From Candidatus Heimdallarchaeota archaeon (GTDB lineage: Archaea; Asgardarchaeota; Heimdallarchaeia; Heimdallarchaeales; Heimdallarchaeaceae): a DNA stretch of 28,771 bases. Below, piece after piece: positions 6,143-14,555 of this stretch (the first letter of the stretch is position 1; each line of letters begins with the position of its first letter). A program made the position numbers and the translations under genes. The stretch is taken from the NCBI GenBank assembly GCA_030668825.1, contig DAOVET010000031.1, positions 1-28,771 on the forward strand, in the 5' to 3' direction. The notes beneath the pieces are model-generated. The model did no database searches. It was not told the origin of the DNA and saw only the letters and a list, made by a program, of their open reading frames with translations.

Positions 6143-7120
6143 CTATAGTAGTTTTTCTTTGAATACCTGAAGCATATCTAGTCCTCTAATTTCTCTATCT
6201 AATGCTTCAATTTCTGTAATGATTGTTTCTGGAAAAGCTGATTTGATATACTCGATATTCTTTAGGTGCTCTTTGTGTCTATGCATACAATAGGAGCAAC
6301 CATCATTAGCTGGATTTATCTGATTTACTACTGCAAATTTATGTGAAATAAGATGTTGATCTAGTTCTTCAACGAGTCTTTCCGTTTCAAAAACACTCAT
6401 CATTGTTGGAATTAGTACTTTAATGAATTGTGTTTGTTCTTCATCCATCAGCTTGTCTCTCGCAACCAAAACCTTCTCTTTCATAGTTTCAAGAGTTTCA
6501 ACAGTTCTATCCTTCTCTTGACTTCCTCCAAACAAGGATTTCATCATTGTCATAGCGTTTGAAATGAAGGTTTTCATTTTAAGCATTCTTCCTAAAAATG
6601 AATCAAGGAACTCAGGAATATTTAATAATCGTAAAGTGTGACCAGTTGGAGCTGTATCAAGGATTACTGTGTCGTATATCTCATCCTCTGCATATTCTAG
6701 AATTTTTGCGAAAGATAAGGCTTCATCCATACCTGGAGGTGGAATTGATTTTAAATCTTGACCCAAACCTTGTTGTAATTCCCCCAAACCAGGAATAGCC
6801 GAAAATTGTGAGAATTGATCTGAATCAACAGGTTGTCCTATAGCCTTAGATATTTCCTCACCTGCTGCAGCAGGATTGATTTCAAGAGCAAATAGGTCAC
6901 CAGCAACTCCTTTGACTTTAGTTATTTCACCCTTAGAAAAATCCATATCAAATGAATCAGAAACACTATGGGCAGGGTCAGTTGAGATAATTAAAACTCT
7001 TTTACCTAGTTCAGCCAAAGCTATTCCTAGTGCTGAGGCAACGCTTGTTTTTCCTACTCCTCCTTTTCCCCCAACTAAAATGTATTTTAGATCCATGCTA
7101 GTAATTTCTTTTAAGGACAT
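6143..7120 (-). CDS. get3: Get3/TRC40 (ArsA-family) ATPase, tail-anchored protein targeting factor
   Basis: GKGGVGKT P-loop, STDPAH, DTAPTGHTLRLL, single ATPase domain, Met-rich insert (MLKMKTFISNAMTMMKSLFGG) and CSYC dimer Zn motif. ATG at 7120 preferred over the track's TTG at 7129. Confidence 0.88.
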   Translation of the reverse strand: MSLKEITSMDLKYILVGGKGGVGKTSVASALGIALAELGKRVLIISTDPAHSVSDSFDMDFSKGEITKVKGVAGDLFALEINPAAAGEEISKAIGQPVDSDQFSQFSAIPGLGELQQGLGQDLKSIPPPGMDEALSFAKILEYAEDEIYDTVILDTAPTGHTLRLLNIPEFLDSFLGRMLKMKTFISNAMTMMKSLFGGSQEKDRTVETLETMKEKVLVARDKLMDEEQTQFIKVLIPTMMSVFETERLVEELDQHLISHKFAVVNQINPANDGCSYCMHRHKEHLKNIEYIKSAFPETIITEIEALDREIRGLDMLQVFKEKLL

Positions 7121-9054: not shown

Positions 9055-9933
9055 ATGACTGTAAGAATAATGACAGATAGTGCTGCAGATATAACTCCAG
9101 ATTTAATCAAGAAGTACAATTTATCACTAGTTCCAACAGTGATAAGATTTGGTGATGAGATATACTATGAAGGAATAGATATTGATTTAGAGCAATATTA
9201 CGATAAATTTTTCACCTCTAAAGACTACCCTCAAACTGCTAATCCAACTCTTTACCACCAATATGAATTATTTGAGAAATTAGGAAATGAAGCGGATGAA
9301 GTAATAAATATAGTCATTTCTTCGGGTATTTCTGGTTCCTTTAATACAGCAATTAATGCTAGAAGAAGATATGAACAGAAGGTTAAGAACCCAGCTAAAA
9401 TTCTTATTTACGATTCAAAACTAGCAACTTTTGGTATAGGTGTAATTTCAATCATGGCAGCTGAGCTTGCTGAAAAAGGTCTGAGTGCTGATAAAATAAC
9501 CCCCAAATTAGATGAATATAGAGATAAGCTTGAAGTTGGTTTTACTGTAGCCGACCTAAAGTATTTACACAGGGGAGGAAGACTTAGTAGATCGAAGTAC
9601 TGGGTAGCTAAAATAGCTGATAGGAAACCTGTGATAGTTTTTGAAGATGGTAAGATGAATGTAGTTAAAACTGTTAAGGGCCATGAAAACGCCGTCATTG
9701 AATCATTTGAGTATGTTTATGAAAAAACAGGAAGACCCAATACTTTTAATGCCTATATTATGCATGCAAAGAATATGGATTCTGCAAAATTACTGAAAGA
9801 TTACATCATTGATAGGTTTAAACCCGAGGAACACAACATATCAATAGATGATTTAGGAATGGCTGTTACTACTCATACAGGTCTTGGTAGTATTGGTATT
9901 TGTTTGGATACACATTATAAATTTCTAAAATGA
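9055..9933 (+). CDS. degV: DegV/FakB-family fatty acid-binding protein (tandem paralog)
   Basis: TDSAADI, PQTANP, ISSGISGS, YDSK, YLHRGGRLS, THTGLG. Confidence 0.93.
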   Translation: MTVRIMTDSAADITPDLIKKYNLSLVPTVIRFGDEIYYEGIDIDLEQYYDKFFTSKDYPQTANPTLYHQYELFEKLGNEADEVINIVISSGISGSFNTAINARRRYEQKVKNPAKILIYDSKLATFGIGVISIMAAELAEKGLSADKITPKLDEYRDKLEVGFTVADLKYLHRGGRLSRSKYWVAKIADRKPVIVFEDGKMNVVKTVKGHENAVIESFEYVYEKTGRPNTFNAYIMHAKNMDSAKLLKDYIIDRFKPEEHNISIDDLGMAVTTHTGLGSIGICLDTHYKFLK

Positions 9934-9950
9934 CTAGACAAGTGATAAAA

Positions 9951-10667
9951 ATGAATTTTGAAGCATTACTTTTTGATTTAGATGGAACTTTGCTATATTT
10001 TGAACCGAGAGCTTTCATTAAAACCTATCTAGGAGCAGCTGCGAAGTTCTTCATAGATTTAGTTCCTAATCCTGAAACATTTTACACAGAATTACTCAAA
10101 TCTACAGATGTGATGGAAAATGGTGACAACGGGAATACTACAACTCTTGTTGATTTTATGGAAGATTTCTGTCCAAAATTTGATGTAGATTGTGAAACTA
10201 TACGAAAAAGATTTTTACAGTTTTACGATACTGAATATAAAGCTATAAAACCACTAATTTCCAAGATGAAAGGTGCTAGTACTTTACTACAGAATCTTAA
10301 GAAACTCCATCCTGAAAAGAAATTGATTTTAGCAACCAATCCTGTTTTTCCTTTCATAGCTGTACGAAAAAGAATGGAATGGGGAGGTATTCCTGAAAAT
10401 GTTTTTAATCTTATTACACACGCTGAAAATTCTAATTACTGCAAAAATAATAGCAATTATTGGCTAAACATAGCTAAAAAGACTGCAATAGATCCACAGA
10501 AATCATTAATGGTAGGAAATGATGGCTATAGGGATATGGTAGCTAAGAAATACGGTTACAAAACCTTTCTAGTGGAAACTGCTTCTGAAAATGAGGAGAA
10601 TATGACAGAAGATATTATGCCTGATTACAGAGGCAAATTAGAAGATCTTCACAATCTTATTTTCTGA
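9951..10667 (+). CDS. HAD-superfamily hydrolase (phosphatase)
   Basis: DLDGTL, LATNP, YCK, MVGND..RD. ATG 9951 follows a GTGAT RBS-like site; the track's alternative start at 9930 overlaps the degV stop (ATGA). Confidence 0.9.
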   Translation: MNFEALLFDLDGTLLYFEPRAFIKTYLGAAAKFFIDLVPNPETFYTELLKSTDVMENGDNGNTTTLVDFMEDFCPKFDVDCETIRKRFLQFYDTEYKAIKPLISKMKGASTLLQNLKKLHPEKKLILATNPVFPFIAVRKRMEWGGIPENVFNLITHAENSNYCKNNSNYWLNIAKKTAIDPQKSLMVGNDGYRDMVAKKYGYKTFLVETASENEENMTEDIMPDYRGKLEDLHNLIF

Positions 10668-10718: not shown

Positions 10719-12422
10719 ATGAGAAAGATGTCTATTATAACTCCTGAAGCTTCATTCATTTTTGTTTATATCGCACTGTTATATAATGCGGGTTTATCAC
10801 TTAAGTTGATCTATAATTCTTTATCAAATCCTCTTTATGAAAGGAAAGTATGGAATTTATCATCTGCCGGGTTAATCTTTGTAGGAACGATTCTTTTCTT
10901 CCTCTGGTTTAATTTCTCATTGTCAGTAGATTTTGTTTGGGGGGGTCTAGTAGGCTGTTTTCTTCTGTTTGTAAACAACCTGTTAGCTACAATTTTTGCA
11001 TTTAAAAATTTAATTGAAGTTTCAAGATGGGGTAAAGCTAACTATATTTTCTTCACAGTTTTATCTTTGCAGTCGTTTATGTTATTACTAAATTTCATTG
11101 AAGCTCAAACAATTTTTGGTTTGCCTAGAGTTCTAGAATGGCTTATGATTATTCCTTCAGTTGGATATTCAGCTTTTCAAGCTTTTCTATATGGTCCAGT
11201 AGGTTATTTCTTCCCAGCACTTCTTTTGATTCCCCTTGCTGCTCCTATCAAATTTATGAGACCTCCTGAACCGGAACCGGAACCTGAGAAAACTACAACT
11301 AAAAAAACCAAAAAACAAGGTAAAGATTCAAAAGAGAGTGTATTTACAGAAGAAATTGAGATTCCAGAACAGAAGAAACCAGCAGTGTGGAAAACAATAC
11401 TTTCTTTTCTGGATAATGGTTCAAAAGGAATATTTGCTATTCTATTCATTTTACTAATGGTATTTAGCCTTCTAAATATTGGTACATTCACTTCATTCAG
11501 TGATTTTAAAGGCTCAGATTATCAACCTACATATCCTGAAAGAACTGATTTTGAATTCAGTGTATCATTAAAGACAATTACTTATCAACAAACCCTACTG
11601 TTTAACTATGAAGCTGTCTTTCAAGAGGAACTAGCTTTAATCAAGGAATTGAATGTTTCCACTGTAAGAATTGATATTAAAGCAGAGATTATTGATAACA
11701 ATCTAACAGAACTTATAGATATCACAGACCAACTCCATGCAAATGGTTTCAAAATCATGTTATCAACGTATGGATACGGATTTCCAACATGGAATTATCA
11801 AGCGGTCAATTTCACTGATTATGTCGATGTCATCGAACAGCAAGCTAAAACATTGATTCTTAACTGTACTCCTGAATATCTTCTTATCTATCCAGAACCT
11901 CTCGGTTTCTCTTCAGCATTTGTTAGAGAATTACAAACTCCTGTAGTTTGGGCATCTACTATAAATGATTCAGTGAACTATCTTAGATCTTTTACAAATG
12001 ATACAGAGATTGGCGTAAATCTCTCGTTTAATGATTTTGATAAATATGCTTTTGAAACTAGTGTATTCGAAGAATTATGGGAAAATACTACTCTTGATTT
12101 CATGGGAATCGATTTCTACATAATACATGCAAGGGATCTAAATTTAGACGTATATCTTGAAGATGTAACAAGTAACACAAAAGAATTCTGGGTGTGTGAA
12201 TTTGGCGTATCAGCAGTTATGTATGGTGAGAGAATTCAAGAAGCAGCTTTAGCGAGATTACTTGAGATATGTGTAAAAGAAAGTAGAATAAAAGGTTTCA
12301 ATTATTTCTCACTAATAGATGACTTAGCAGGTGGAAATTCGCTCGGATTAGTTGGGCAAACTGGTCACCAAAGGCTTTCATTCTATAAATATCAAGAAAT
12401 AATCAACAAAGTTGTTTTATAG
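10719..12422 (+). CDS. Polytopic membrane protein fused to an extracellular clan GH-A glycoside hydrolase (TIM barrel)
   Basis: About 5-6 N-terminal TM helices, a PEPEPEPE/K-rich loop, a further TM, then ELNVSTVRID, IYPEP (acid/base-like Glu), DFMGIDFY, WVCEFG (nucleophile-like Glu), GFNYF; many N-glycosylation sequons. Confidence 0.75.
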   Translation: MRKMSIITPEASFIFVYIALLYNAGLSLKLIYNSLSNPLYERKVWNLSSAGLIFVGTILFFLWFNFSLSVDFVWGGLVGCFLLFVNNLLATIFAFKNLIEVSRWGKANYIFFTVLSLQSFMLLLNFIEAQTIFGLPRVLEWLMIIPSVGYSAFQAFLYGPVGYFFPALLLIPLAAPIKFMRPPEPEPEPEKTTTKKTKKQGKDSKESVFTEEIEIPEQKKPAVWKTILSFLDNGSKGIFAILFILLMVFSLLNIGTFTSFSDFKGSDYQPTYPERTDFEFSVSLKTITYQQTLLFNYEAVFQEELALIKELNVSTVRIDIKAEIIDNNLTELIDITDQLHANGFKIMLSTYGYGFPTWNYQAVNFTDYVDVIEQQAKTLILNCTPEYLLIYPEPLGFSSAFVRELQTPVVWASTINDSVNYLRSFTNDTEIGVNLSFNDFDKYAFETSVFEELWENTTLDFMGIDFYIIHARDLNLDVYLEDVTSNTKEFWVCEFGVSAVMYGERIQEAALARLLEICVKESRIKGFNYFSLIDDLAGGNSLGLVGQTGHQRLSFYKYQEIINKVVL

Positions 12423-12437
12423 AAATAATGAAGAACT

Positions 12438-12494
12438 GCCTCAGACCGCCCATCAGCGATCATATTATCACACGACCGTTGTGTCATCATTAGC
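12438..12494 (-). ncRNA. Box C/D guide sRNA (2'-O-methylation guide)
   Basis: Minus strand: GCUA-[C AUGAUGA 12490-12484]-CACAACGGUCGU-[D' GUGA]-UAAU-[C' AUGAUCG]-CUGAUGGGCGGU-[D CUGA 12444-12441]-GGC. Two 12-nt spacers, a short terminal stem, and a D guide antisense to the conserved 16S sequence ACCGCCCGUCA. Confidence 0.88.
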
Positions 12495-12524
12495 TAATTC
12501 CTCAAGGAAAATAATCGAGTTTTG

Positions 12525-12538
12525 GTTTAAAGTTTTCG
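12525..12538 (-). promoter_or_regulatory. BRE + TATA promoter for the C/D sRNA
   Basis: Minus strand CGAAAA-C-TTTAAAC about 35 nt upstream of box C, predicting a TSS near 12500. Confidence 0.65.
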
Positions 12539-12546
12539 ATAATCCA

Positions 12547-13800
12547 CTATATGGACATTGCTTGAGCCATGGAAATGTATCCTTCAACCTCACTTTTAGC
12601 TATTCTAACAAACTCTAATAGCTGTTCAAGATTGCCCTCTGAAGCACTTAGGTGAGTCTCTTCAAGCCTTTTCATAGCTTCCTCAAATTTTGATAACGCA
12701 TCTTTGAATTGTTCTTGATCAAAAAGAGAAATTCCCTCTGTTTCTGAAGCTAGTGCTTCATAGAAAGATCTTTGAGCAGTCATATTTTTGATAAGTGATT
12801 CGCTTTTAATACTTGTTAGAAGACCCAAAGCAATATCTACTGATTCAACTGCTTTTTTGAATTTATTACTTGCATCTATTGGATTATCTCTTCTTTTATA
12901 GAGTTCATTAGCTTCAGATTCAAATTGGCTGGCTTGAGTGATTCGAGATAAAGCTAAGTACAGACGTTGTTCCATAAAATTTGAACAAATTACACTTGCT
13001 CTCGAATAATATTTGGATGCTATCGCAAAAAACCTTAGAGCTTCATTGAAGTTACTTATAATTATACTCTCTGTCCCTTGATCCCAAAACAATTCAGCTC
13101 TACCGACTATATGTGCTTTAGTTATCTCATCTATCTTGTTTTGCATATCTTCCATTTCTTTATCAAGTGATTTAAACAAAAAGTTGGCTTTCATTAATTC
13201 TGTTCTTGCATAAAGAAGGTGTTTCTTTGACTCTTTTGTGTTATCTGTAATTGATTCAGAAAGTTTTAACTCATAGATATATTTGGCATAACTTATTCTT
13301 GAATTTGAAACACTCACATCAATTGGATTATCGTCACTTTTGCGATTTTCTGAAAATTCTTCAAAGAAACCAATAGCTTCTTTTGCTGCTTGAATTTGAT
13401 TTTCTATGTTTTGATCAAGAAATGAGTTGCAAATTCGACACATCCCCTCAGAATAATTTATCCATTTAACCATCTCATTGAAAATTCTATCTCCTTCTCT
13501 CCCTCTAGAAGCTTTTGCTCGGATTAGCAACTTCAGTGATTCTTCATAGTTTTTTTGAGCATCAGCCTTCTTATCCTTTTTGAATAATTCGTCTCCTTTA
13601 ACAACATAAAGCATTCCAGCATAATAATATGACAAAACTTTGAATGCAACATTATCTTCTCCTGCTTCTTTAAATTCATTATACAGTTTAGAATATTCAT
13701 TATACGATGCTTTTAGATTTGAATAGACTGGTTCATAATGTAAAAATTGGAATTCAAGACTCTTTGTACTCAAAGGAACACCAAAATAATAATGAATCAC
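12547..13800 (-). CDS. Alpha-solenoid (TPR-like) hypothetical protein
   Basis: All-helical, with recurring G/A-x-x-L-F/Y...A-x-x-x-F/Y-x-x-A units (e.g. KGDELFKKDKKADAQKNYEES; EGISLFDQEQFKDALSKFEEA). The start may be TTG 13773 after a GGTG RBS-like site. Confidence 0.75.
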   Translation of the reverse strand: MIHYYFGVPLSTKSLEFQFLHYEPVYSNLKASYNEYSKLYNEFKEAGEDNVAFKVLSYYYAGMLYVVKGDELFKKDKKADAQKNYEESLKLLIRAKASRGREGDRIFNEMVKWINYSEGMCRICNSFLDQNIENQIQAAKEAIGFFEEFSENRKSDDNPIDVSVSNSRISYAKYIYELKLSESITDNTKESKKHLLYARTELMKANFLFKSLDKEMEDMQNKIDEITKAHIVGRAELFWDQGTESIIISNFNEALRFFAIASKYYSRASVICSNFMEQRLYLALSRITQASQFESEANELYKRRDNPIDASNKFKKAVESVDIALGLLTSIKSESLIKNMTAQRSFYEALASETEGISLFDQEQFKDALSKFEEAMKRLEETHLSASEGNLEQLLEFVRIAKSEVEGYISMAQAMSI

Positions 13801-13889
13801 AAAAATAAAAAAGTAACTATTGTTTTGTTCGTGTAAAAAGAGATAAAAATAGGAAGAAAAATACAGAATTAACTCTCATAGTGATAAAG

Positions 13890-14555
13890 ATGACAAAATT
13901 ACTTCCTGTAGTTGTTTTTGATATGGATGGAACAATAATTCAATCAAATATTGATTATTTTGGTACAAGGCAGAAAATGTGGAACATTTTGAAAAATACT
14001 GTAAGTAAAAATTACTATGAGGAAATAGTGGGTTCTCCAAGATCAATCATTGAACTGGTTGATTTAATAGAAAGAAACGATGAAACTAATACAAAAGTGA
14101 AATTGGCTTGGGAAATAATAGAAAAAAGCGAGAAAGAAGGCTATGAAGATGCAAGAGTCGATGATGATGTTTATGAGACTCTTGAATTCCTTAAAGCAAA
14201 AGAGTACACATTAACTATTTTTACAAATAATTCCAGAAAGTTAACAAACTATGGTCTTGAGAAATTTAATTTGCAGAAATATTTTGACTTTGTTCTTACA
14301 AGAGACGAAGTAAAAAATACTAAACCTCATCCTGAAGGTTTGGAAATCACGATGAGAAGATTTTCCGCTCAGAATAGCAATGTAGTGTTTGTAGGGGATA
14401 GTTGGATAGATGCCGAAACTGCTGTAAATGCAAGAGTCAAATTTATTTATTTTGGTTTAGAAGGATCTTCTGGAACAAGAAGAAAAGTGATCAAACCAGA
14501 CCATACTATTGAATTCATGAAAGATTTAATTCCAATAGTTGAGAAACTTAGGTAA
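13890..14555 (+). CDS. HAD-superfamily hydrolase, phosphoglycolate-phosphatase-like (subfamily IA)
   Basis: DMDGTI, FTNN, KPHP, VGDSWID; ATG 13890 follows GTGAT (track start 13881). Confidence 0.9.
   Translation: MTKLLPVVVFDMDGTIIQSNIDYFGTRQKMWNILKNTVSKNYYEEIVGSPRSIIELVDLIERNDETNTKVKLAWEIIEKSEKEGYEDARVDDDVYETLEFLKAKEYTLTIFTNNSRKLTNYGLEKFNLQKYFDFVLTRDEVKNTKPHPEGLEITMRRFSAQNSNVVFVGDSWIDAETAVNARVKFIYFGLEGSSGTRRKVIKPDHTIEFMKDLIPIVEKLR

What the first reader, a model, noticed from the sequence alone, without database searches (positions are those of the whole stretch)
12438..12494. Dual-guide box C/D sRNA whose D guide targets the 16S decoding-centre C1402
Seen: the comparatively GC-rich gap between two convergent genes reads on the minus strand as C(AUGAUGA)-12 nt-D'(GUGA)-4 nt-C'(AUGAUCG)-12 nt-D(CUGA), with a short terminal stem and its own BRE/TATA. 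Established: this is the canonical archaeal L7Ae/Nop5/fibrillarin guide layout, and methylation occurs opposite the 5th nt upstream of D or D'. The D guide UGAUGGGCGGU pairs over 11 nt (one G-U) with the conserved SSU sequence ACCGCCCGUCA (E. coli 1398-1408), and N+5 falls on C1402. That position is 2'-O-methylated by the protein RsmI in bacteria and by snoRNA guides in eukaryotes (yeast Cm1639/snR70, human Cm1703/SNORD43). Inference: a functional guide that ORF-based annotation misses, and a functional analogue or possible relative of a eukaryotic snoRNA if the host is Asgard.
Basis: partly seen in the sequence, partly recalled or inferred. Interest (0 to 1): 0.85.

Follow-up and report, generated by a model that had tools for sequence, protein, structure and literature searches.

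The report
Conserved Heimdallarchaeial box C/D guide RNA
This is a real, unannotated methylation-guide RNA gene of an Asgard (Heimdall-type) archaeon that most likely directs ribose methylation of two ribosomal RNA positions also methylated in eukaryotes, an expected kind of gene but a well-preserved and informative example.

Summary
It is part of a 74-nt element (12503..12430) with a conserved BRE/TATA and an 11-bp terminal stem. The strict box layout occurs once in the 2.76-Mb genome and 0 times in each of five simulated genomes.

It is conserved as one syntenic copy in 25 of 30 other genomes of the host's family. These MAGs are labelled Candidatus Heimdallarchaeota. Both guide cores stay invariant while the flanking proteins fall to 38-53% identity. 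The same two-guide RNA is found in 19 of 62 Methanomethylicia genomes. Fibrillarin, Nop5 and L7Ae are encoded; RsmI was not found.

N+5 falls on position 2590, which by numbering offset is the site of yeast Cm2959 and human Cm4536. A compensatory change across phyla supports this pairing.

The D guide pairs over 11 nt (two G-U, not one) with SSU 1398-1408, with N+5 on C1402. It also pairs over 10 nt with LSU 2555-2564 (N+5 on C2558), so the target is not uniquely settled.

The host's own target regions are not assembled, and no RNA data exist. I found no evidence of descent shared with eukaryotic snoRNAs. Verdict: a genuine new member of a known class.

The parts
12525..12537 (-). Promoter: BRE-like GAAAAC followed by TATA-like TTTAAAC. 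It ends 21-22 nt upstream of the first stem base.
   Evidence: The motif (A/C)GAAA(A/C/T)C(T)TTAAAC sits at the same distance in 16 of 16 Heimdall homologues inspected, although the surrounding sequence differs. Its role as a promoter is inferred from the archaeal BRE/TATA consensus, which is recalled.
12492..12503 (-). 5' strand of the terminal stem (GAGGAAUU-A-GCU); A12495 is bulged and A12491 unpaired.
   Evidence: MFE fold of -26.6 kcal/mol, z -3.78. On alignment A3, 99.3% of cells pair against 37-71% for slid controls, and two pairs carry compensatory changes. The stem sequence is wholly different but still pairs in G043 and G045 (by inspection).
12484..12490 (-). Box C, AUGAUGA.
   Evidence: TGA and the final A are invariant or nearly so across 16 homologues.
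12472..12483 (-). D' guide CACAACGGUCGU. N+5 is G12476, which pairs with LSU C at E. coli position 2590.
   Evidence: It forms 10 contiguous Watson-Crick pairs with GACCGUUGUG. That sequence is present in 7 of 8 same-genus LSUs (the eighth is truncated) and in 5 of 5 LSUs from other genera of the family. Numbering comes from alignment to MG1655 rrlH. The core AACGGUC is invariant in 26 of 26 family copies. Guide A opposite U2594 in Heimdall becomes guide G opposite C2594 in Methanomethylicia.
12468..12471 (-). Box D', GUGA.
   Evidence: Its first base G can pair with C at position 6 of C' (AUGAUCG). The same pair reads A-U in G044 and U-A in Methanomethylicia with UUGA/AUGAAAG (by inspection). 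The k-loop geometry is recalled.
12457..12463 (-). Box C', AUGAUCG, preceded by the 4-nt spacer UAAU (12464-12467).
   Evidence: TGA is kept in the window's subgroup. C'/D' are degenerate in other subgroups.
12445..12456 (-). D guide CUGAUGGGCGGU. N+5 is G12449, which pairs with SSU C1402. The alternative partner is LSU C2558.
   Evidence: Against SSU ACCGCCCGUCG (E. coli 1398-1408) it forms 11 pairs, 9 Watson-Crick and 2 G-U, at -20.2 kcal/mol. Against LSU UUCGCCCAUUAA (2554-2565) it forms 10 pairs (guide nt2-11 with 2555-2564), 8 Watson-Crick and 2 G-U, at -15.9 kcal/mol. The core GAUGGGCG is kept in 25 of 26 family copies and 19 of 19 Methanomethylicia copies.
12441..12444 (-). Box D, CUGA.
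   Evidence: GA is invariant; a few relatives read CCGA, UUGA or CAGA.
12430..12440 (-). 3' strand of the terminal stem (GGC-AGUUCUUC).
12421..12429 (-). T-rich tail AUUAUUUCU, a likely termination signal. It overlaps the stop codon of the convergent ORF.
   Evidence: T-rich sequence follows the stem in all 16 homologues. The terminator role is inferred.

Best explanation
Window 12503..12430 (minus strand) is an independently transcribed, about 74-nt box C/D sRNA gene of a Heimdallarchaeial archaeon.

Proposed mechanism. L7Ae binds the k-turn formed by boxes C and D, which is closed by an unusually long 11-bp stem, and the k-loop formed by C' and D'. Nop5 and fibrillarin then assemble on the RNA. 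Each 12-nt guide pairs with pre-rRNA, and fibrillarin methylates the ribose of the nucleotide paired to the fifth guide base upstream of D' or D.

Targets. The D' guide targets LSU rRNA at the peptidyl-transferase region, E. coli position 2590, which is a C in this lineage. The D guide most likely targets SSU C1402 at the P-site and decoding centre. The same guide can also pair with the 3' strand of LSU helix 92 (C2558), 32 nt from the D' site. It may therefore act there instead of, or as well as, on the SSU.

Shown here: the sequence layout, the stem, conservation, synteny, guide-target complementarity and covariation, and presence of the protein machinery. Inferred: transcription, RNP assembly and methylation.
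For: - Layout and rarity: (one hit in the genome against none in five simulated genomes).
- Stem.
- Promoter: conserved in 16 of 16 homologues.
- Conservation: covariance model R1 finds one copy per genome in 28 of 47 genomes of the order. In the host's family this is 25 of 30 besides the host: 19 of 24 in the genus and 6 of 6 in four other genera.
- Synteny: kept in 21 and 23 of 24 family loci, with flanking proteins down to 38-53% identity.
- Not coding: homologues (stem to stem plus one flanking base each side) measure 76, 77, 80, 81, 82 and 83 nt, so the indels break any reading frame.
- Wider spread: the same dual-guide RNA is in 19 of 62 Methanomethylicia genomes.
- D' target: 10 Watson-Crick pairs, an invariant target, and a compensatory A-U to G-C change across phyla.
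- D target on the SSU: 11 pairs with N+5 on C1402. The target sequence is present in 8 of 8 same-genus 16S loci and 3 of 3 from other genera.
- SSU pairing in other families: C/D sRNAs with GAYGGGCG-NN-CUGA D guides occur in 29 of 400 Asgard genomes, with 0 matches to the control pattern. Among the 20 outside the family, 12 carry C and 8 carry U opposite G1405, and both occur within one family.
- Machinery. No RsmI match.
- Rfam: every sub-threshold hit but one (a mir-2335 model, E 2.1) is a C/D family, and six of them cover 12494 to 12439/12440 at full model length. The best is RF01140 at 27.8 bits, E 1.9e-4.
Against: - There are no expression or methylation data, and no RNA run was available.
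- The host's own 16S 3' domain and its LSU are not assembled, so pairing rests on relatives.
- The D guide is G/U-rich and pairs nearly as well with LSU 2555-2564. In Methanomethylicia that match is slightly better than the SSU match: 9 Watson-Crick plus 1 G-U against 8 plus 2.
- 72% of rRNA-targeting Pyrobaculum sRNAs are dual guides whose two sites lie within 100 nt of each other (PMC6009581, passage). That favours the LSU site.
- U at guide nt8 is kept in 44 of 45 copies that carry the LSU D' guide. An LSU A2561 partner would demand exactly this.
- C'/D' boxes are degenerate in several subgroups. There an 11-nt reading of the D' spacer would shift the site to 2591.
- The element scores below the gathering threshold of every Rfam family.
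Confidence: 0.8

Rival explanations
1. It is the same real C/D sRNA, but both guides act on LSU domain V: D' on 2590 and D on C2558 in helix 92. It would be a typical closely spaced dual guide or folding chaperone. The match to SSU C1402 would then be a by-product, because the two rRNA sequences share a CGCCC core (CCGCCC in Methanomethylicia).
For: - The LSU match has 10 contiguous pairs and lies 32 nt from the D' site.
- It passes the published relaxed rule for a second guide within 100 nt (PMC6009581, passage).
- It is slightly better than the SSU match in Methanomethylicia.
- Guide nt8 is U in 44 of 45 copies that carry the LSU D' guide.
- Where guide nt2 changes from G to A (4 family copies), SSU pairing is lost and LSU pairing is gained.
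- The pairing of these two guides is kept across two phyla.
Against: - In the window the SSU duplex is longer and more stable: 11 against 10 pairs, -20.2 against -15.9 kcal/mol.
- Guide nt10 is G in 45 of 45 copies, although A would pair better with LSU U2563.
- Changes of nt11 and nt8 from U to C in G007, G004, G044 and G227 improve SSU pairing and break LSU pairing.
- Related D guides in other Asgard families carry C at nt8. That gives Watson-Crick pairing with SSU G1405 and a mismatch with LSU A2561.
- None of the passages I read lists a methylation at the 2558 equivalent.
Confidence: 0.2
2. One guide serves two targets. The D guide directs methylation of both SSU C1402 and LSU C2558. Over guide nt3-nt11 in Heimdall (nt2-nt11 in Methanomethylicia) the two targets differ only where the guide carries wobble-capable bases: U8 faces G1405 or A2561, and G10 faces C1407 or U2563.
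For: - Target sequences and pair strings are.
- U8 is kept in 44 of 45 copies and G10 in 45 of 45.
- In the same RNAs, the D' guide freely interchanges C and U opposite target G: 10 C against 9 T and 15 C against 4 T at two columns.
Against: - The copies are related, so the counts are not independent events.
- Each invariance could be inertia rather than selection.
- There are no experimental data.
- Guides with several predicted targets are often over-called.
Confidence: 0.25
3. It is not a functional RNA. It would be a chance box-like motif, a terminator hairpin between convergent genes, or part of a small ORF (12412..12618 on the plus strand, 68 aa; 12468..12593 on the minus strand, 41 aa).
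For: - ORFs of 68 and 41 aa overlap the site.
- A loose C/D-plus-target scan performs at chance level.
- No Rfam gathering-level hit.
Against: - The strict layout is unique in the genome and absent from the simulated genomes.
- Guide cores are invariant across a family and a second phylum, while boxes, spacer and stem vary with frame-breaking indels.
- The stem shows covariation.
- The promoter is conserved.
- A stem enclosing a 52-nt loop is not terminator-like.
Confidence: 0.03

Closest known systems
Archaeal box C/D sRNAs (L7Ae/Nop5/fibrillarin guides; for example the Pyrobaculum families in Rfam, closest model sR20 RF01140)
   Same: It has boxes C, D', C' and D with 12-nt guides and the N+5 rule, rRNA targets in functional centres, and a host that encodes the three proteins.
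   Different: It scores 27.8 bits against a gathering score of 44, and its guides differ, so it belongs to no curated family. Its 11-bp terminal stem is much longer than the few pairs I recall as usual for archaeal sRNAs. The host is a GC-poor Asgard archaeon in which my scans found only one other convincing C/D candidate.
Pyrococcus abyssi 16S Cm1369, the archaeal equivalent of E. coli C1402
   Same: It is the same rRNA position as the D guide's N+5 site. It is listed beside yeast Cm1639, human Cm1703 and E. coli Cm1402 in Table 2 of PMC11542601 (passage seen).
   Different: I did not see which P. abyssi sRNA, if any, guides it. Dennis et al. 2015 (PMC4644070, passage) call helix 44 predictions sparse in seven other archaea, and the passage seen mentions positions 1408 and 1494, not C1402.
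Eukaryotic U43/SNORD43, snR70 and AtU43 (18S Cm1703, Cm1639, Cm1645)
   Same: They have the same predicted target nucleotide and the same enzyme family. The equivalence of sites and guides comes from PMC11542601 Tables 1-2 and PMC2656528 Table 4 (passages).
   Different: The cmscan of the region listed no such model at E <= 10. Any likeness in the guide is forced by the invariant rRNA. The archaeal RNA carries a second guide, for the LSU.
Eukaryotic U35/SNORD35, snR73 and Plasmodium PFS17 (Rfam also holds a Plasmodium model, snoR20) for LSU Cm2959 / Cm4536
   Same: The D' guide places N+5 on E. coli position 2590. That equals yeast 2959 and human 4536 by a constant offset from Um2921/Um4498 = U2552 (PMC11542601 Table 2; PMC2656528). 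The Rfam plasmodium_snoR20 consensus carries CACGACGGUCUU-CUGA as its D' guide, and it is a weak hit here (E 0.87).
   Different: The similarity is confined to the guide. The offset mapping assumes no indel in the eukaryotic stretch 2552-2590, which I did not check on a eukaryotic sequence. No archaeal entry stands at this site in that table.
Bacterial RsmI, a stand-alone C1402 2'-O-methyltransferase
   Same: It would yield the same modified nucleotide.
   Different: It is a protein-only enzyme. TIGR00096 found no match in this genome, which is 90.6% complete.

Membership tests
Archaeal box C/D sRNA | Box C (RUGAUGA) near the 5' end and box D (CUGA) near the 3' end. | tested here: met
   AUGAUGA at 12490-12484 and CUGA at 12444-12441. 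Both are kept in homologues.
Archaeal box C/D sRNA | Internal D' and C' boxes able to form a k-loop. | tested here: met
   GUGA and AUGAUCG are separated by 4 nt. The C' position 6 to D' position 1 pair reads C-G here, U-A in G044 and A-U in Methanomethylicia (by inspection). These boxes are degenerate in other subgroups.
Archaeal box C/D sRNA | Guide spacers of about 12 nt between C and D' and between C' and D. | tested here: met
   Both are 12 nt.
Archaeal box C/D sRNA | A terminal helix that closes the C/D k-turn. | tested here: met
   An 11-bp stem: 99.3% of cells pair against 37-71% for slid controls, with 2 compensatory pairs; z -3.78.
Archaeal box C/D sRNA | Guide complementarity to rRNA or tRNA with a Watson-Crick pair at N+5. 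| tested here: met
   D' forms 10 Watson-Crick pairs with the LSU. D forms 11 pairs with the SSU or 10 with the LSU. All three have G-C at N+5. This was tested on relatives' rRNA, because the host's own is unassembled. No convincing target was found among 30 tRNAs.
Archaeal box C/D sRNA | Host encodes L7Ae, Nop5 and fibrillarin. | tested here: met
   Fibrillarin 301 bits, Nop5 230 bits in the adjacent gene, and L7Ae 89 bits.
Archaeal box C/D sRNA | Expressed as a discrete small RNA, bound by the proteins, with the target methylated. | not testable with these tools
   This needs small-RNA-seq, RIP or RiboMeth-seq.
Any curated Rfam C/D family | Score at or above the family's gathering threshold. 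| tested here: not met
   There were 0 gathering-level hits in the window. The best is RF01140 at 27.8 bits against 44.
Homologue of eukaryotic SNORD43/snR70 or SNORD35/snR73 | Sequence or structure similarity beyond the rRNA-dictated guide. | tested here: not met
   The cmscan at E <= 10 listed no model by these names. The only eukaryotic C/D hit is plasmodium_snoR20 at E 0.87, through the shared LSU guide. I did not confirm which of these families Rfam 15 contains.

The most novel reading that the evidence does not exclude
The D guide is a two-target guide kept by selection. Its wobble-capable bases U8 and G10 sit at the only positions where SSU 1400-1408 and LSU 2556-2564 differ. One 12-nt guide could therefore methylate both C1402 (P-site and decoding centre) and C2558 (stem of the A-loop helix). 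With the D' guide on LSU 2590, a single small RNA would touch three functional-centre sites on both subunits.

This RNA is shared by Heimdallarchaeia and Methanomethylicia. Two of its sites are those served by separate snoRNAs (U43/snR70 and U35/snR73) in eukaryotes. It could thus resemble the multi-site ancestral state from which single-site eukaryotic guides were split.
Probability: 0.2. Interest if true: 0.65.

Novelty: new member of a known kind. Interest (0 to 1): 0.45.

Why it matters
Box C/D guide RNAs are the archaeal counterparts of eukaryotic snoRNAs. Five full-text searches found no paper describing them in Asgard archaea, the closest known relatives of eukaryotes.

This locus gives a concrete, conserved and promoter-bearing example in Heimdallarchaeia. 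Its predicted sites coincide with eukaryotic Cm1639/Cm1703 and Cm2959/Cm4536. It also shows that C1402-type guides are spread over several Asgard families.

It offers a simple test of whether decoding-centre and peptidyl-transferase-centre methylations predate eukaryotes as RNA-guided events. It is also a natural test case for a single guide with two near-identical targets. As annotation, it fills a gene that ORF callers miss and that Rfam does not detect.

Tried and rejected
- Host target sites: I looked for them in the host genome. CCGCCCGTC is absent, the 16S is cut at a contig end and no LSU was found. Relatives' rRNAs were used instead.
- RNAalifold on a MAFFT alignment missed the terminal stem because the 3' arm was mis-registered. 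I realigned with a 3' extension and counted a structure I specified myself.
- My first stem-based genome scan was too strict and missed even this locus. The looser scan performed at chance level.
- Expression: the look-up of sequencing runs listed no RNA holder. It returned four runs of unknown kind from one study, each holding 0.27-0.35 of the sampled words. This says nothing about expression.
- tRNA targets: only G-U-rich 8-bp matches among 30 tRNAs. Rejected.
- An SSU site near position 936 for the D' guide pairs well in one relative but is not conserved. Rejected.
- Weak model hits outside the order (G151, G130, G139, G170, G080) do not carry the same guides.
- D' guides of the C1402-type sRNAs of other families gave no confident target when I used this family's rRNA as a proxy.
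- Literature: I found no statement on methylation at the LSU 2558 equivalent. I also could not find which P. abyssi sRNA guides Cm1369. Supplementary tables of Dennis 2015 and Lui 2018 were closed and may hold both answers.
- No structure, complex or protein-homology searches were needed.

Full report
**What is in the sequence.** It lies 44 nt downstream of a minus-strand 417-aa TPR ORF and 8 nt from the stop of a convergent 567-aa ORF. The element is larger than the stated coordinates. An 11-bp helix (8 + 3 pairs with one bulged A) joins 12503-12492 to 12440-12430. That gives a 74-nt RNA with MFE -26.6 kcal/mol and z -3.78.

**Is it more than chance?** The strict layout occurs once in the 2.76-Mb genome, at this site, and 0 times in each of five simulated genomes. 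A loose criterion is worthless. A C box, CTGA and a 9-bp match to rRNA gave 55 candidates, against 58 and 58 with reversed or complemented rRNA. Rfam gives no gathering-level hit. All sub-threshold hits but one (a mir-2335 model at E 2.1) are C/D families, and six of them match at full model length over 12494 to 12439/12440. The best is RF01140 at 27.8 bits against a threshold of 44.

**Host and machinery.** The window is contig 115 of a 138-contig MAG with GC 0.33.
- A pattern scan of species-representative genomes returned 33 stretches.
  - 17 are in MAGs titled Candidatus Heimdallarchaeota. One is an unnamed archaeon with the same sequence as a genus member.
  - One is in Methanomethylicota and one in a MAG labelled Nitrososphaerota.
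  - 13 are in bacteria. These lack boxes and sit in GC-rich coding sequence (by inspection).
- Fibrillarin and Nop5 are adjacent on contig 45, and L7Ae is on contig 21.
- RsmI (TIGR00096) has no match, in a genome 90.6% complete.

**Conservation.**
- A covariance model built from 16 copies finds exactly one copy per genome in 28 of 47 genomes of the order.
  - In the host's own family it finds 25 of 30 besides the host: 19 of 24 in the genus and 6 of 6 in four other genera.
  - In the other families it finds 0 of 1, 0 of 3 and 2 of 12, the last two weak.
- In a 151-genome sample of the phylum, strong hits are confined to that family. The weak ones carry other guides.
- The locus is syntenic. 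Orthologues of the TPR ORF and of the 567-aa ORF flank it in 21 and 23 of 24 family loci, at 38-95% protein identity.
- Within the RNA, AACGGUC and GAUGGGCG are invariant or nearly so, while boxes, the D'-C' spacer and the stem vary.
- Copies measure 76-83 nt, so the indels break any reading frame and exclude a coding function.
- The stem pairs in 99.3% of cells, against 37-71% when the partner is slid, with two compensatory pairs. In G043 and G045 the stem sequence is entirely different yet still complementary. These sequences are related, so the shuffle counts are not probabilities.
- A BRE/TATA-like GAAAAC-TTTAAAC lies at a fixed 21-22 nt upstream in 16 of 16 copies, and a T-rich tract follows the stem. 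It is therefore its own transcription unit.

**D' guide.**
- CACAACGGUCGU forms 10 contiguous Watson-Crick pairs with GACCGUUGUG. This sequence is present in 7 of 8 same-genus LSUs (the eighth is truncated) and in 5 of 5 LSUs from other genera.
- Alignment to E. coli MG1655 rrlH places it at 2588-2597.
- With the 12-nt spacer and D' = GUGA, N+5 pairs with position 2590, a C here and an A in E. coli.
- By constant offset from Um2921 / Um4498 = U2552, this is yeast Cm2959 and human Cm4536 (PMC11542601, Table 2 passage). Those sites are guided by snR73/U35 (PMC2656528, table passages). I did not check the offset on a eukaryotic sequence.
- In Methanomethylicia the LSU has C at 2594 where Heimdall has U, and the guide has G where Heimdall has A. 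This held in 8 of 8 genomes for which both the sRNA and the LSU were available. That is a compensatory change.
- In subgroups whose D' reads NNGA after 11 nt, the site would be 2591.

**D guide.**
- CUGAUGGGCGGU pairs over 11 nt with ACCGCCCGUCG, E. coli 1398-1408, with N+5 on C1402. Because 1408 is G in this lineage there are two G-U pairs.
- The target is present in 8 of 8 same-genus 16S loci and in 3 of 3 from other genera.
- The same guide also pairs over 10 nt with the LSU sequence UUCGCCCAUUAA (2554-2565; guide nt2-11 pair with 2555-2564), with N+5 on C2558. That is 32 nt from the D' site.
- Duplex energies are -20.2 kcal/mol for the SSU and -15.9 for the LSU.
- For the LSU site:
  - Proximity fits the usual dual-guide pattern. 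72% of rRNA-targeting Pyrobaculum sRNAs are dual guides with both sites within 100 nt (PMC6009581, passage).
  - The LSU match is slightly better in Methanomethylicia.
  - U8 is kept in 44 of 45 copies.
  - G-to-A changes at nt2 favour the LSU.
- For the SSU site:
  - The duplex is longer and stronger here.
  - G10 is kept in 45 of 45 copies.
  - U-to-C changes at nt8 or nt11 in G044, G007, G004 and G227 favour the SSU.
  - A pattern scan of 400 Asgard genomes gave 29 with a match and 0 matches to the control pattern. The window itself fell outside the gap range I set.
  - That scan found C/D sRNAs with GAYGGGCG-NN-CUGA D guides and other D' guides in six to seven further families. Twelve carry C and eight carry U opposite G1405, and both occur within one family.
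- I conclude that C1402 is the more likely target, at about 0.7. C2558 may be an additional target, and is less likely the sole one.
- The two targets differ only where the guide has U and G. That is what a two-target guide would need (rival 2).

**Relation to known things.**
- It meets every sequence-level criterion of an archaeal C/D sRNA, but it belongs to no curated Rfam family.
- Methylation of the C1402 equivalent is already listed for P. abyssi (Cm1369). Dennis et al. 2015 describe helix 44 predictions as sparse in seven other archaea (passage).
- No SNORD43, snR70, SNORD35 or snR73 model appears at E <= 10.
- The family is shared with Methanomethylicia, in 19 of 62 genomes.
- The link to eukaryotic snoRNAs is therefore one of function and site, not demonstrated descent.
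- Five searches found no paper on C/D sRNAs of Asgard archaea. Only listings and the named passages were read.

**Limits.**
- No RNA run was available.
- The host's own target regions are unassembled.
- Supplementary tables that might list these sites were closed.
- The k-turn and k-loop pairing rules, the usual stem length of archaeal sRNAs and the BRE/TATA consensus are recalled, not tested here.

Noticed in passing
G000 contig C20, about 6686-6770 (+), outside the window: This is a second convincing C/D sRNA candidate in the host genome. It has ATGATGA ... CTGA flanked by a 10-12-bp terminal stem (GAGAATAGCG / CGTTATTCTC). Its D guide is complementary to LSU around E. coli 2574-2583, with N+5 near A2577, which is 13 nt from the D' site of the focal RNA. 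Long terminal stems may be typical of this lineage.
   Followed up: partly
Loci L165-L194 (other Asgard families f3, f4, f7, f18, f23, f24): These are C/D sRNAs with their own terminal stems. Their D guide is complementary to SSU 1399-1408 but their D' guides differ. The base opposite G1405 is C in 12 and U in 8. A C1402-type guide is therefore widespread in Asgard archaea.
   Followed up: partly
L038, L039, L040, L041 (LSU rRNA of G009, G013, G016, G020): Extra sequence interrupts the 23S gene right after the equivalent of E. coli A2600, 3 nt downstream of the D' guide's target. It looks like an rRNA intron or insertion present in some genus members only. LSU lengths range from 3382 to 4428 nt.
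   Followed up: no
L026-L033, L110-L112, L156-L162 (16S genes): The 16S has G at E. coli position 1408, as I recall for eukaryotic 18S, both in the Heimdall family and in Methanomethylicia.
   Followed up: no
G000 contig C25:11766-12466 and the whole genome: The host MAG holds only the first ~700 nt of its 16S, at a contig end, and no LSU rRNA. rRNA-dependent checks on this genome itself are therefore impossible.
   Followed up: yes
window 10719-12422 (+) and 12547-13800 (-): The 567-aa ORF has no Pfam domain, yet it is conserved next to the sRNA across the family. The 417-aa ORF has only a sub-threshold TPR_2 match.
   Followed up: partly
window 9930-10667 (+) and 13881-14555 (+): Two HAD-superfamily hydrolase genes bracket the locus.
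   Followed up: no
window 12412-12618 (+) and 12468-12593 (-): Mechanical ORFs of 68 and 41 aa overlap the sRNA. Frame-breaking indels among homologues argue that they are not genes.
   Followed up: yes
G000 contig C45:57807-59329 (-): The fibrillarin and Nop5 genes are adjacent, as in many archaea.
   Followed up: no
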